Origin: the human T2T-CHM13v2.0 reference genome, Homo sapiens
DNA: 64,000 bases
Reading direction: 5' to 3' (one strand)
Assembly: GCF_009914755.1 (NCBI RefSeq)
Contig: NC_060940.1
How positions within the stretch are numbered: the stretch's first letter is position 1; the number at the start of each line of letters is the position of its first letter. Below are positions 40,201-41,936 of the stretch, piece by piece. The notes under the pieces are model-generated. The model worked only from the letters and a program-made list of their open reading frames with translations, had not been told where the DNA came from and ran no database searches. Both the position numbers and the translations under genes were made by a program.

Positions 40201-41936
40201 CTAAAAACACACTCTGAACTGGAAACCGTGCTTTCACCTGTGATATACAGTCCTAAAGTTCAATTCAATGTAATTGATTATCATAGGTGGTTTGAAAGAA
40301 TGAACTAAACTTTAGGATCGTATATCACAGATATACCACATTCAATTAAATTTGACTTAATAAAGTCAAGTCAATTTTCTCTAAGGTAGCAGTCCAAAGA
40401 CCAGGTTCCAAACTTTTATGGAAGTCCATCGGATTGCTCTAATAAAGGACAATATATTAAGGTCCTACCCAACTATAAACTTCGACAATTTCTCTTATAC
40501 TTTTTCTAAGATATTTGAAGCACAAAGCCAGGGACACAAAAGGAAACATCAGGCCAGGGGTGGTGGCTCAGGCTCACGCCTGTCATCCCAGCACTTTGGG
40601 AGGCCAAGGTGGGCGGATCACAAGGTAACGAGATTGAGACCATCCTGCCCAACATGGTGAAACCCTGTCTCTACTAAAAATACAAAAATTGGCCAGCCAT
40701 GGTGGCACACGCCTGTAATCCCAGCTACTCGGGAGGCTGAGGCAGGAGAATCGCTTGAACCCTGGCAGCGAAGGTTGCAGTGAGCTGAGATCGCGCCACT
40801 GCACTCCAGCCTGGCGACAGAGCGAGACTCCATCTTAAAAAAAAAAAAAAAGAAACATCATTTCTCTTTTCTTTTTCATTCAGGGTCTGGCTCCGTCTCA
40901 GTAACGCCTTGGGGAAAGCGATGGAGAAGGGCTCGCTCACGCAGCACTTCTGGCAGTCCCTGAAGGACCACTACCTCAAGTCTCCCAGGCTGGAGTGCAG
41001 TGGCACGACTTCAGCACACTGCAACCTCCGCCTCCTGGGTTAAAGCGATTCTCCTGCCTCAGTCTCCCGAGTAGCTGGGATAACAAGTGCGCGCCACGGG
41101 GATTAAGCCCTCTCGTATGCCTCTGGAATGGTACTATGTACCATCTTCCTAGCAATGATAAAACACTCAATTACCTGTGTTCTGTGGTTCAAATGGGGAA
41201 CGCTAATGAGAATATAAGACAGCCAGTTAAAGGGTGGCTAATCCTGACTTATCTATGTTAACCTACATACTCCAGGGATTTGGGAGTGGTTAACAAAGAT
41301 ATCAGGCTGAATTAAGATGGTCTCTACTGTTAGACGTTGATCACTTAATACTCACAGGTATCTACTGAATAACCCATACGGGTAGATGCATGACAGTTTT
41401 AGAACTGATCCCTTTTAATACATAACGTTCAGAATGACCTTAGTGAGGCCCAGAAAATTTTGAAGGTCTTTCTGAAAAGCTAGGGTATTTAACATTTCTC
41501 CAACTTCCACGTTTACTGAGTGGCTCAACAAAAGAATGCATTTCTCAGAAAGGAGGATGAAGCTAAGCAGGAAGTTTCGCTTTTCTTTTCTGATAACTCT
41601 TAGTTCTCGTCCTAGTTCCTCCTCCACAGTCTCTTAACTCTAGGAGTATGATAGGGAGCATCCCGCCGGTGCCAGCTGGGAACGGGGAGCCGGCGTGCCC
41701 GGGGTATCCCGGGGTACGTGGTCTGCAGGGCGCAGCCACCACGTCTCAGCATGTGCGTACCCACGAGAGCCGGCAAGAAGGCCCCGGCACAGCAGCCTTG
41801 GTGGGAACCTCGCGGCGCTTCCCAGCCCAGACTCTCCTACCGCAAAGGCTTTAAAGACTCGCAGCGACACTCACTTCTTGCTCAGTTTCGGCTCGCTGCC
41901 ATCCACTTTCACCTCGGCCGCCTGCACGGCCGCCAT
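22191..41936 (-). CDS. KARS1: Lysyl-tRNA synthetase, cytosolic isoform (597 aa)
   Basis: 14 exons sum to 1794 nt in phase, from [17 protein letters not shown] to TTVGTSV*; class II motifs [14 protein letters not shown] and GMGIDR. Confidence 0.98.
22865..23008 (-). CDS. KARS1: KARS1 exon 14
   Basis: [16 protein letters not shown]...GMGIDR...NNIK; 144 nt. Confidence 0.95.
23711..23837 (-). CDS. KARS1: KARS1 exon 13
   Basis: [14 protein letters not shown]...EEQAK; 127 nt. Confidence 0.95.
23895..24112 (-). mobile_element. Alu, partial
   Basis: Antisense. Confidence 0.85.
24275..24714 (+). mobile_element. MaLR solo LTR (MLT1-type) in KARS1 intron 12
   Basis: MLT1-type body; ends ttttggggctgttatgcagcaataggtaactggaa. 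Confidence 0.7.
24719..24804 (-). CDS. KARS1: KARS1 exon 12
   Basis: [31 protein letters not shown] acceptor; 86 nt. Confidence 0.95.
24915..25230 (-). mobile_element. AluS with (TAT)n tail
   Basis: Antisense; TSD cctatagctttt. Confidence 0.9.
25464..25549 (-). CDS. KARS1: KARS1 exon 11
   Basis: [28 protein letters not shown]; 86 nt. Confidence 0.95.
25712..25885 (-). CDS. KARS1: KARS1 exon 10
   Basis: [17 protein letters not shown]...FETE; 174 nt. Confidence 0.95.
25989..26151 (-). CDS. KARS1: KARS1 exon 9
   Basis: [21 protein letters not shown]; 163 nt. Confidence 0.96.
26189..26485 (-). mobile_element. AluSp-like
   Basis: Antisense; TSD catgacagctaatct. Confidence 0.92.
27066..27671 (+). 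mobile_element. LTR22-like (HERV-K HML-5) LTR nested in an older MLT1 LTR
   Basis: TG...CA ends; tgttgggattcactcaggatggtgg start; gggtctgcaggcagacccccgca near the end; cctcta/cctata flanks. Confidence 0.7.
27812..28110 (-). mobile_element. AluS
   Basis: Antisense dimer. Confidence 0.9.
28469..28588 (-). CDS. KARS1: KARS1 exon 8
   Basis: [18 protein letters not shown]...ELYHK; 120 nt. Confidence 0.95.
28882..29170 (-). mobile_element. AluY-like
   Basis: Antisense; TSD caatt..cagtatttatt. Confidence 0.92.
29198..29236 (+). pseudogene. Y1 RNA (RNY1) 5' fragment retrocopy
   Basis: GGCTGGTCTGAAGGTAGTGAGTTATCTCAACTGATTGTT matches the first 39 nt of hY1 (as recalled) with 2 mismatches. Confidence 0.88.
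29976..30101 (-). CDS. KARS1: KARS1 exon 7
   Basis: [14 protein letters not shown]...GFLE; 126 nt. Confidence 0.95.
30208..30394 (-). CDS. KARS1: KARS1 exon 6
   Basis: NYKSEEEF...HFGLKDK; 187 nt. Confidence 0.95.
30750..30843 (-). CDS. KARS1: KARS1 exon 5
   Basis: [21 protein letters not shown]; 94 nt. Confidence 0.95.
30928..31236 (-). mobile_element. Alu
   Basis: Antisense dimer. Confidence 0.9.
31789..32094 (+). mobile_element. AluSp-like
   Basis: Dimer; TSD atctaaagg. Confidence 0.92.
32515..32782 (-). mobile_element. L1PA-type 3' end, 5'-truncated, with TSD
   Basis: poly-T then tactttaagttctggg...; flanks gaaaaacaaaaagttc / gaaaagcaaaaaattc. Confidence 0.85.
33184..33497 (+). mobile_element. 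AluS
   Basis: Dimer. Confidence 0.9.
33588..33890 (+). mobile_element. AluS
   Basis: Dimer. Confidence 0.9.
34482..34647 (-). CDS. KARS1: KARS1 exon 4
   Basis: [14 protein letters not shown]...LKVA; 166 nt. Confidence 0.95.
35085..35562. mobile_element. MER58A split by an Alu
   Basis: gctgtgttccaatacaatttta...ggactgtagttggccagcccctg. Confidence 0.65.
35219..35488 (+). mobile_element. Alu with central deletion
   Basis: Alu consensus. Confidence 0.85.
35863..36022 (-). CDS. KARS1: KARS1 exon 3
   Basis: [15 protein letters not shown]...SVDPN; 160 nt. Confidence 0.95.
36485..36795 (-). mobile_element. AluS
   Basis: Antisense, long poly-T. Confidence 0.9.
37676..37974 (-). mobile_element. 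AluY-like
   Basis: Antisense; TSD gaatctttca. Confidence 0.92.
38579..38724 (-). CDS. KARS1: KARS1 alternative exon 2, mitochondrial targeting sequence (full exon 38579-38758)
   Basis: [19 protein letters not shown]..., Arg-rich; 180-nt exon with AG/GT boundaries; same phase as exon 1. Confidence 0.95.
39860..40163 (+). mobile_element. Alu (diverged)
   Basis: Dimer and poly-A. Confidence 0.88.
40551..40851 (+). mobile_element. AluS
   Basis: Dimer; TSD gaaacatca. Confidence 0.92.
40861..41097 (-). mobile_element. Alu right arm interrupted by the TERF2IP-derived insert
   Basis: T-rich tail + cagggtctggctccgtctc [insert] ccaggctggagtgcagtgg. Confidence 0.85.
40900..40980 (+). pseudogene. Inserted ~80-bp duplicate of TERF2IP exon 1 Myb-coding sequence
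   Basis: 40901-40980 aligns ungapped to 42658-42737 at 75/80 identity. Confidence 0.93.
41875..41936 (-). CDS. KARS1: KARS1 exon 1 (cytosolic start)
   Basis: [20 protein letters not shown]; donor AA|GTGAGT. Confidence 0.96.

What the first reader, a model, noticed from the sequence alone, without database searches (positions are those of the whole stretch)
40861..41097. An 80-bp piece of the RAP1 (TERF2IP) Myb-domain exon was copied into an Alu 1.76 kb away, with templated-insertion signatures
Seen: 40901-40980 matches TERF2IP exon 1 at 42658-42737 ([26 protein letters not shown]) at 75/80 nt, ungapped and in the same orientation. It interrupts an antisense Alu right arm: removing it restores gggtctggctccgtctcccaggctgg (Alu consensus gggtctcgctctgtcgcccaggctgg). 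The insert is bracketed by a 5-bp direct repeat GTCTC (40895-40899 and 40980-40984). The Alu sequence just left of it shares GCTCCGTC (40890-40897) with the donor sequence just upstream of the copied tract (42646-42653). There is no poly-A tail or exon junction. Inference: a germline break in the Alu was repaired by microhomology-primed synthesis (polymerase-theta type) from the neighbouring open CpG island or its transcript. All four altered codons are non-synonymous (W>G, S>G, S>F, R>H), which argues against protein-level selection.
Basis: partly seen in the sequence, partly recalled or inferred. Interest (0 to 1): 0.8.

Follow-up and report, generated by a model that had tools for sequence, protein, structure and literature searches.

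The report
Old exon-fragment patch inside an Alu
An 80-base piece of the first TERF2IP (RAP1) exon was copied long ago into a nearby Alu repeat, leaving the marks of a short-homology DNA repair or replication slip; it looks like a neutral scar of a known kind, not a functional element.

Summary
40901-40980 matches TERF2IP exon 1 (42658-42737) at 75 of 80 bases, ungapped, same strand. The whole T2T genome holds only these two copies. The two TERF2IP retrocopies, on chr22 and chr5, are far more diverged.

The tract splits an antisense Alu right arm. GTCTC is duplicated on both sides. An 8-base word, GCTCCGTC, is shared just upstream of both junctions; chance gives this in about 0.001 of random pairs. 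There is no poly-A tail, no exon junction and no L1 cleavage site.

Best reading: an old, neutral, templated insertion copied in cis after annealing at short homology. The polymerase cannot be named. A single 81-base tract from 1.76 kb away is atypical for polymerase theta, whose insertions are described as generally under 25 bp and copied from the break's flanks (PMC12426944).

New context: the host Alu lies tail-to-tail with a full sense Alu. Without the insert the locus folds into one long hairpin (-130 kcal/mol against -48 for shuffles), and the junction sits about 40 bases from its centre. Such inverted Alu pairs are described as fragile, but I could not show the order of events.

It is a new example of a known kind. 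Interest is modest.

The parts
40900..40980 (+). Inserted copy of TERF2IP exon 1, 80-81 bases. 40901-40980 is the ungapped match. 40900 (A) aligns with donor G 42657 at a CpG. The G at 40980 could belong to the insert or to the right GTCTC.
   Evidence: 75 of 80 identical. Only 2 places in the whole genome.
42657..42737 (+). Donor tract in TERF2IP exon 1 (coding, Myb-domain region), inside the CpG island shared with KARS1.
   Evidence: CpG observed/expected is 0.74-0.99 in the 200-base windows starting 41600-43200. Exon coordinates come from the hub's gene table.
40895..40899 (+). Left copy of the 5-base target duplication GTCTC; these are Alu bases.
   Evidence: Both copies map to the same Alu position. 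0 of 12 other Alus compared carry TCTCC at that position.
40980..40984 (+). Right copy of the 5-base target duplication GTCTC.
40890..40897 (+). GCTCCGTC, the 8-base homology in the Alu just left of the junction. It is identical to donor 42646-42653, one base out of register with the copied tract.
   Evidence: A shared word of 8 or more bases arises in 200 of 200,000 random Alu-by-exon-1 position pairs.
42646..42653 (+). Donor counterpart of the 8-base homology, 4 bases upstream of the copied tract.
40861..40899 (-). Left piece of the host Alu: its T-rich tail and the last ~20 bases of an antisense Alu right arm.
   Evidence: Alignment to 12 genomic Alu copies and to the Alu alignments.
40985..41097 (-). 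Right piece of the host Alu, which is 5'-truncated (right arm only).
   Evidence: Inverted repeat I1. 86.7% to positions 154-266 of the sense-Alu query, window 40549-40835. About 90% to many genomic Alus.
40552..40851 (+). Full-length sense Alu with a 15-A tail (40837-40851). It is flanked by the 9-base target duplication GAAACATCA at 40543-40551 and 40852-40860. It lies tail-to-tail with the host Alu.
   Evidence: Non-CpG divergence is 11 of 223 from the majority of its 29 nearest genomic relatives.
40702..41097 (.). Quasi-palindrome formed by the two Alus. Arms 40702-40814 and 40985-41097 are 87% complementary, and the A and T tails extend the pairing. The predicted apex loop is 40855-40862.
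   Evidence: I1; the empty-site single strand of 331 bases folds at -130.4 kcal/mol, against -48.2 +/- 3.4 for 30 shuffles.

Best explanation
This is a fixed, old, selectively neutral templated insertion, that is, a small dispersed duplication.

A break or a stalled and disengaged 3' end arose inside an antisense Alu in KARS1 intron 1. The + strand end finishing in GCTCCGTCTC annealed to the complementary strand of TERF2IP exon 1, 1757 bases away on the same chromosome. The annealing used an 8-base identity (9 of 10 bases in register). About 81 bases were copied. The new end was rejoined to the other side of the Alu with only one base of overlap (G), and 5 bases of Alu (GTCTC) ended up on both sides. 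The exon itself was left intact.

Shown: the copy, the identity of the donor, both junctions, the duplication, the homology and its improbability, and the absence of retrotransposition marks.

Inferred: the order of annealing and synthesis, DNA rather than RNA as the template, and the trigger.

The likeliest trigger, at about 0.3, is the tail-to-tail inverted Alu pair. Before the insertion it formed a near-continuous hairpin-forming quasi-palindrome with the junction about 40 bases from its centre. The polymerase cannot be named.
For: - 75 of 80 identity, same strand.
- Only two genomic copies, 2 of 2 candidates scored. The two other exon-1-like places are intronless retrocopies at 68-70%, and the copy is no closer to them: 82% over 34 bases.
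- The Alu is continuous once the insert and one GTCTC are removed. 12 of 12 comparison Alus are uninterrupted there, and 0 of 12 carry the T that both GTCTC copies share.
- The 8-base homology has p of about 0.001, 200 of 200,000.
- No poly-A or poly-T at either end, and no further TERF2IP-derived sequence nearby.
- Divergence at non-CpG sites: 2 of 68 in the insert, 11 of 223 in the neighbouring sense Alu and 13 of 110 in the host Alu. This fits the order host Alu, then sense Alu and insert, and it fits neutral decay.
- Hairpin prediction: -130.4 kcal/mol against -48.2 +/- 3.4 for shuffles.
- Literature: replication stalls at inverted Alus 12 bp apart in yeast and primate cells (PMC7999016, passages). 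Alu quasi-palindromes are fragile in yeast (PMC3855049, passages).
Against: - The 8-mer is one base out of register with the copied tract. Priming in register predicts two bases, C and G, between GTCTC and GTAACG, but the sequence has a single A. So a one-base slip, or a later one-base deletion plus a CpG transition, must be assumed.
- The right junction has only 1 base of overlap.
- A clean 5-base duplication with no loss of Alu bases is not the usual outcome of hairpin-tip or cruciform cleavage.
- The junction is 40 bases off-centre.
- The ages of the insert and the sense Alu cannot be told apart (Fisher p = 0.74). The Alu pair may therefore not have existed when the insert arrived.
- The tract lies wholly within one exon, so a DNA template and an RNA template cannot be distinguished.
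Confidence: 0.6

Rival explanations
1. An RNA-derived patch. A TERF2IP transcript, probably nascent and tethered in cis, was reverse-transcribed at a double-strand break (by L1 ORF2p acting without its endonuclease, or by another reverse transcriptase). The cDNA was then captured by the other end through the 8-base homology. This would be a class-2-like templated sequence insertion.
For: - The donor tract and the 8-mer are entirely exonic and lie in a CpG-island promoter-proximal exon.
- Onozawa and Aplan report that experimental templated insertions are enriched for transcribed sequence, are reduced by reverse-transcriptase inhibitors, and show microhomology without a poly-A tail (PMC5110952, parts 1-2 read).
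- The junction prediction is the same as for a DNA template.
Against: - The donor is only 1757 bases away in cis. A diffusible mRNA pool gives no reason for that.
- There is no exon junction to prove an RNA origin.
- Class 2 events are described as lacking target duplications, and this one has 5 bases.
- Priming on the mRNA from the right-hand end would rest on 1 base of homology.
Confidence: 0.15
2. Polymerase-theta-mediated end joining in the strict sense. A resected double-strand break in the Alu was extended by Pol theta after microhomology annealing, the end dissociated, and the two ends were joined.
For: - There is microhomology next to the junction.
- The filler is templated, with no loss of the donor.
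- Reviews call templated insertions a hallmark of Pol theta (PMC12426944).
Against: - The same review states that such insertions use the flanking sequence around the break and are generally small, under 25 bp. This is one uninterrupted tract of 80-81 bases from 1757 bases away.
- No bases were deleted at the break.
- There is no patchwork of short segments.
Confidence: 0.15
3. An L1-machinery product. Either an ORF2p-mediated insertion of a non-L1 RNA (class 1 templated insertion), or a template-switch chimera made while the host Alu was being retrotransposed.
For: The 5-base target duplication meets the minimum of the class 1 definition (PMC5110952).
Against: - There is no poly-A or poly-T tract at either end, and the target is not a TTTT/A-type site.
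- A chimera would need two switches that return to within 5 bases of the same Alu position.
- Relative to the Alu, the fragment is antisense to TERF2IP mRNA, so an antisense RNA template would be required.
- The insert looks marginally younger than the host Alu: 2 of 68 against 13 of 110, p = 0.051.
- The composite is found nowhere else in the genome.
Confidence: 0.04
4. A functional element. KARS1 pre-mRNA carries 81 bases complementary to TERF2IP mRNA in intron 1, embedded in an inverted-Alu hairpin. This could couple the two divergently transcribed genes through RNA pairing or editing.
For: - Strand geometry: KARS1 is on the minus strand, so its intron holds the antisense of the copy (hub table).
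- The predicted intermolecular duplex is -160.7 kcal/mol.
Against: - There is no sign of constraint. Non-CpG decay in the insert (2 of 68) is indistinguishable from the neighbouring Alu (11 of 223, p = 0.74).
- 4 of 13 CpG sites have changed.
- An intronic location means nuclear, short-lived RNA.
- No expression or conservation data were available here.
Confidence: 0.03

Closest known systems
Templated sequence insertions and their polymorphisms (TSI/TSIP; Onozawa and Aplan; PMC5110952)
   Same: A non-repeat genomic segment of tens to hundreds of bases is copied, not cut, into another site. The junction shows microhomology. It is heritable.
   Different: TSIPs are defined with distant donors, often on another chromosome. 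They fall into class 1 (target duplication plus poly-A plus TTTT/A site) or class 2 (no duplication). This case has a donor 1757 bases away in cis, and a 5-base duplication without a poly-A tail or an L1 site, so it fits neither class cleanly. It is probably fixed and old rather than polymorphic; I could not test that.
MMBIR / FoSTeS template-switch insertions (MMB-TIs; PMC8421209)
   Same: A nearby template in cis, microhomology or microhomeology at the switch point, and a plausible link to a structure that stalls replication.
   Different: The catalogued events were searched only within about 100 bp of the insertion, and some classes described there are inversions of their template (passages). 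Here the template is direct and 1.76 kb away, and the return junction has only 1 base of homology.
Polymerase-theta templated insertions (PMC12426944)
   Same: Filler DNA copied from a template after minimal base pairing.
   Different: Those are generally under 25 bp and copied from the break's immediate flanks, often as a patchwork. This is one tract of 80-81 bases from 1757 bases away.
Dispersed duplications in structural-variant catalogues
   Same: A segment is duplicated and inserted nearby, and the source is retained. That this is a named variant class rests on titles and abstracts in the listing only.
   Different: At about 80 bases this lies near the lower size limit of what such catalogues report. 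That limit is my recollection, not something checked here.
Capture of genomic fragments at nuclease-induced breaks (PMC11747631)
   Same: Promoter, TSS and exonic fragments are among the sequences found inserted at Cas9 breaks in human cells (passages).
   Different: Those are somatic and experimental, and their discussion attributes them to randomly acquired genomic fragments. This one is germline, ancient, and comes from the adjacent promoter-proximal exon.
Fragile inverted Alu quasi-palindromes (PMC3855049, PMC7999016)
   Same: Two Alus in inverted orientation with an effectively tiny spacer and 87% arm identity. This is the class shown to stall replication and to break in yeast.
   Different: The known outcomes are hairpin-capped breaks, deletions and gross rearrangements. 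A clean patch from a neighbouring exon 40 bases off-centre was not among the outcomes described in the passages I read.

Membership tests
TSIP class 1 (L1 ORF2p-mediated) | Target-site duplication of at least 5 bp | tested here: met
   GTCTC at 40895-40899 and at 40980-40984. Definition from PMC5110952.
TSIP class 1 (L1 ORF2p-mediated) | Non-templated poly-A tract downstream of a polyadenylation signal | tested here: not met
   The insert abuts Alu bases directly at both ends. There is no A or T run at either end.
TSIP class 1 (L1 ORF2p-mediated) | Insertion at a 5'-TTTT/A-3' type site | tested here: not met
   The target is CCGTCTC/CCAGG within the Alu body.
TSIP class 2 (break patch) | No target-site duplication | tested here: not met
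   A 5-base duplication is present.
TSIP class 2 (break patch) | End-joining marks at the junctions: microhomology, microdeletion or untemplated bases | tested here: met
   An 8-base homology at the left junction, p about 0.001, and a 1-base overlap at the right. There is no deletion.
TSIP (either class) | Donor in a distant genomic region, and donor site left intact | tested here: inconclusive
   The donor is intact but lies only 1757 bases away on the same strand.
TSIP (either class) | Presence/absence polymorphism among people | not testable with these tools
   Only one human assembly is held. The 5-6 substitutions argue for an old, probably fixed event.
Polymerase-theta templated insertion | Small size, generally under 25 bp | tested here: not met
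   80-81 bases in one tract. Criterion from PMC12426944.
Polymerase-theta templated insertion | Template is the sequence flanking the break | tested here: not met
   The template is 1757 bases away.
Polymerase-theta templated insertion | Dependence on POLQ | not testable with these tools
   This needs a genetic experiment.
MMBIR/FoSTeS template switch | Microhomology or microhomeology at each switch | tested here: inconclusive
   Left junction: 8 exact bases, 9 of 10 in register, but shifted by one base from the observed junction. Right junction: 1 base.
MMBIR/FoSTeS template switch | Template nearby in cis, and a context that stalls replication | tested here: met
   The template is 1757 bases away. 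The empty site is predicted to fold as one long hairpin. Whether that caused the event is inference.
Processed retrocopy fragment | Exon-exon junction, poly-A tail, or long target duplication | tested here: not met
   None is present. The true retrocopies on chr22 and chr5 do have contiguous exons.

The most novel reading that the evidence does not exclude
The insert is the repair scar of a fragile inverted-Alu quasi-palindrome. A stalled or broken 3' end about 40 bases from the centre of symmetry primed on the neighbouring promoter-proximal exon. The 85-base asymmetry it left in one arm then damped further hairpin or cruciform formation, which let the Alu pair survive. If this is general, short cis-templated patches inside closely spaced inverted Alus would be a readable genomic record of palindrome breakage in the primate germline. 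A more remote functional reading is listed among the rivals at about 0.03: antisense pairing between the KARS1 intron and TERF2IP mRNA.
Probability: 0.25. Interest if true: 0.5.

Novelty: new member of a known kind. Interest (0 to 1): 0.3.

Why it matters
This is a clean, fully resolved natural example of a cis-templated insertion in the human germline. Both junctions, the donor and the acceptor structure are readable.

It shows that a homology-guided copying event can carry about 80 bases of a coding exon 1.76 kb into a repeat. It also offers one concrete locus for asking whether closely spaced inverted Alus leave such scars.

The practical consequences are small. The longest runs shared exactly between copy and exon are 19, 18 and 17 bases. 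No 20-base guide matches both perfectly, but short primers or probes against this part of TERF2IP exon 1 could also anneal in KARS1 intron 1.

It does not change what is known about RAP1, KARS1 or repair pathways.

Tried and rejected
- Chance or assembly artefact: rejected. The genome-wide E-value is 2.6e-26, and the 5-6 substitutions include CpG transitions.
- Origin from a TERF2IP retrocopy: rejected. The chr22 and chr5 copies are 68-70% identical over exon 1, and the 80-mer is not closer to them.
- Part of a larger duplication, or a remnant of a longer retrocopy: rejected. The window self-BLAST shows no other low-copy link between 40-42 kb and TERF2IP, and Alu sequence resumes at once on both sides.
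- The reading in which the copied tract begins at 42646 and replaces 5-6 Alu bases: less parsimonious. It needs three changes within four bases, plus the coincidence that donor bases restore the Alu in register.
- Using strand logic to exclude an mRNA template: abandoned. A cDNA would present the same complementary strand to the left end.
- Dating with a window-wide Alu consensus: subfamily differences and a misaligned 5' end confounded it. I redid it with 29 nearest genomic relatives. The result still cannot order the insert and the sense Alu (p = 0.74).
- The 32-base perfect inverted match at 9772-9803 and 36485-36516 is only poly-A against poly-T.
- Lobachev et al. 2000 is not held, so its thresholds are not quoted.
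- Literature searches for this specific insertion listed nothing relevant. One search used TERF2IP, KARS, Alu and intron 1: 60 papers held 3 of the 4 terms, 10 were listed, and none was about this locus. That is one search of one library, not proof that the insertion is unpublished.
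Full report
**What is there**

The window is human chr16 (T2T-CHM13; hub table). 40901-40980 equals 42658-42737 at 75 of 80 positions, with no gap, on the same strand, offset 1757. 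The repeat finder reports the same pair on its own as family D6.

- The five differences are 40912 T>G, 40930 A>G, 40949-40950 CG>TC and 40970 G>A.
- In the exon's frame they give W>G, S>G, S>F and R>H.
- The ungapped match ends abruptly on both sides.
- The base before it (40900 A against donor G 42657) sits in a donor CpG. The copied tract is therefore most simply 42657-42737, 81 bases, with one further CpG transition.

**More than chance, and who the donor is**

A search of the whole 3.1-Gb assembly with 40898-40984 found two places, with 2 of 2 candidates scored: the query itself, and exon 1 at 94% and E = 2.6e-26.

A search with the exon-1 coding part (42180-42849) found four places out of 4 scored:
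- the exon itself;
- the copy, as a gapped 92-column match at 91%;
- two diverged places, on chr22 (69%) and chr5 (68%).

The last two have exons lying directly next to each other. On chr22, exon 1 ends at locus position 2076, exon 2 spans 2082-2207 and exon 3 starts at 2208. On chr5, exons 1 and 2 abut at 1501/1500. They are processed retrocopies. The 80-mer is no closer to them, at 82% over 34 bases at best. The neighbouring exon is therefore the donor.

In a self-BLAST of the 64-kb window (3014 rows), six low-copy pairs remain. Four are old repeats at 71-76%. One is a 32-base poly-A against poly-T match. The sixth is this pair.

**The acceptor**

The tract sits in KARS1 intron 1 (hub table), inside a 5'-truncated antisense Alu right arm.
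- The left piece is 40861-40899: the T-rich tail and the last ~20 Alu bases.
- The right piece is 40985-41097.
- In 12 of 12 antisense Alu copies from seven other genomic loci, the sequence runs straight through the junction position.

GTCTC occurs on both sides of the insert, at 40895-40899 and 40980-40984, and both copies align to the same Alu positions. Both carry a T that 0 of the 12 comparison Alus have there. This is therefore a true 5-base duplication of the target, made after that Alu had acquired the T. No Alu base is missing.

There is no A or T run at either end of the insert, no exon junction, and the target is not an L1-endonuclease type site.

**The junctions**

*Left junction.* The Alu reads GCTCCGTC at 40890-40897, and the donor reads the same 8 bases at 42646-42653. 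I drew 200,000 random pairs of an Alu position in this window and a TERF2IP exon-1 position. I looked for a shared exact word of 8 or more bases within the 16 bases upstream of both, allowing a register shift of up to 3. It occurred 200 times, p about 0.001. The homology is therefore very unlikely to be accidental.

It does not line up perfectly, however. Between the 8-mer and the 80-mer the copy has three bases (T, C, A) where the donor has four (A, C, C, G).
- If the Alu end GCTCCGTCTC had annealed in register (9 of 10 bases) and been extended, the junction should read GTCTC, then C, G, G. It reads GTCTC, then A, G.
- Either the terminal C paired one base further along (a one-base bulge), followed later by one CpG transition, or a base was lost afterwards.
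- I consider the first more parsimonious.
- C 40894 may itself be a correction towards the donor in the annealed intermediate. None of the 12 comparison Alus has the window's CTCCG there. This is speculation.

*Right junction.* It shares a single G.

The picture is one homology-guided junction and one nearly blunt junction. That suits annealing, then synthesis, then end joining, or equally a template switch and return.

**Which mechanism**

The features fit the general class of templated insertions or dispersed duplications. The donor is retained, so the tract was copied and not moved.

Against the specific 'polymerase theta' label: a recent review states that theta-dependent insertions are templated by the sequence flanking the break and are generally under 25 bp, often as patchworks (PMC12426944, passages). 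This is one clean tract of 81 bases from 1757 bases away, with no deletion.

Against the two TSIP classes (PMC5110952, first two of four parts read):
- Class 1 needs a duplication of at least 5 bp (met), a poly-A tract (not met) and a TTTT/A site (not met).
- Class 2 has microhomology (met) but no duplication (not met).
- Both were defined with distant donors.

MMBIR-type insertions share the cis template and the microhomeology (PMC8421209, passages). That survey, though, looked only within about 100 bp.

Whether the template was DNA or RNA cannot be decided. Tract and 8-mer lie within one exon, and a cDNA would offer the same complementary strand as the donor's minus strand. The cis distance of 1.76 kb favours a DNA template, or at most a nascent tethered transcript, over the free mRNA pool.

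The donor lies in the shared CpG island. CpG observed/expected is 0.74-0.99 in the windows starting 41600-43200. The acceptor region, in the windows starting 40600-41000, has 0.53-0.61.

Directly to the left lies a full-length sense Alu (40552-40836) with a 15-A tail. It is bounded by its own 9-base target duplication GAAACATCA at 40543-40551 and 40852-40860. It therefore sits tail-to-tail with the host Alu.

- The repeat finder gives arms 40702-40814 and 40985-41097, 113 bases, 87% complementary (I1).
- I folded the single strand with DNA parameters after removing the insert and one GTCTC. The 331 bases form one almost continuous hairpin at -130.4 kcal/mol, against -48.2 +/- 3.4 for 30 shuffles. 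The A tail pairs with the T tail, and the apex loop is at 40855-40862.
- The junction is in the stem about 40 bases from the centre.
- With the insert, the hairpin persists (-141.0 kcal/mol for 416 bases), but with an 85-base branch in one arm.

Among adjacent oppositely oriented Alu hits less than 400 bases apart in this window, there are 5 pairs. Only this one is tail-to-tail with pairing tails. The other gaps are 120-328 bases.

Inverted Alus 12 bp apart stall replication in yeast and primate fibroblasts, while 52-bp spacing does not in eukaryotes (PMC7999016, passages). Alu quasi-palindromes of 94-100% arm identity are fragile in yeast (PMC3855049, passages). A stalled or broken end at this structure is thus a reasonable trigger.

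The objections are real:
- 87% arm identity is below what was tested.
- The junction is off-centre.
- No base was lost.
- The order of events is unknown.

**Age and selection**

| Element | Non-CpG sites changed | CpG sites changed | Source |
|---|---|---|---|
| Insert, against the donor | 2 of 68 (2.9%; Poisson 95% interval 0.4-10.6%) | 4 of 13 | |
| Sense Alu, against the majority of its 29 nearest genomic relatives | 11 of 223 (4.9%) | 8 of 34 | |
| Host Alu fragment, same consensus | 13 of 110 (11.8%) | 7 of 24 | |
| Host Alu fragment, window-wide consensus of 41 Alus | 11 of 111 | 6 of 24 | |

The first 30 alignment columns were dropped for the sense Alu, because a 6-base insertion at its 5' end misaligns them.

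Fisher tests:
- insert against sense Alu, p = 0.74;
- insert against host Alu, p = 0.051;
- sense Alu against host Alu, p = 0.040.

The point estimates give the order host Alu, then sense Alu, then insert. Only the first step has any statistical support.

With primate neutral rates as I recall them (about 1e-9 per site per year; not checked here), the insert is tens of millions of years old, with a very wide interval. Nothing indicates constraint. Four of four altered codons being non-synonymous is what neutral change would mostly give.

**Verdict**

It over-reaches in naming polymerase theta.

The event belongs to a known class and has no evident function. Its value is as a well-resolved example, and as a single pointer to a possible link between closely spaced inverted Alus and cis-templated patches.

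What I could not do:
- No primate orthologues and no other human haplotypes are held here, so the order of events, fixation and the ancestral junction are untested.
- Supplements of the cited papers were not consulted.
- The one targeted literature search listed nothing on this locus.

Noticed in passing
L012 (G000 chr22:18084916-18088491) and L013 (chr5:181525040-181528633): Two intronless TERF2IP retrocopies. In the chr22 copy exon 1 is only 70% identical to the parent, while exons 2 and 3 are 86-88% identical. The CpG-rich first exon has decayed much faster than the rest, presumably through methylated-CpG loss once outside the CpG island.
   Followed up: partly
window 40552-40860: The sense Alu inserted exactly at the edge of the older Alu's T-rich tail, with target duplication GAAACATCA at 40543-40551 and 40852-40860. 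That created the tail-to-tail pair. It also carries a 6-base internal duplication near its 5' end (GGCTCA twice, about 40566-40577).
   Followed up: partly
window 40600-41199: Both Alus and the insert keep an unusually large share of their CpGs. About a quarter to a third of CpG sites have changed: 8 of 34, 7 of 24 and 4 of 13. They lie 400-1,000 bases from the edge of the KARS1/TERF2IP CpG island, so reduced germline methylation near the island may slow CpG decay here. That would make CpG-based dating of this locus unreliable.
   Followed up: no
window 9772-9803 and 36485-36516: A 32-base perfect inverted match turned up in the self-BLAST. It is only a poly-A tract against a poly-T tract and is of no interest.
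   Followed up: yes
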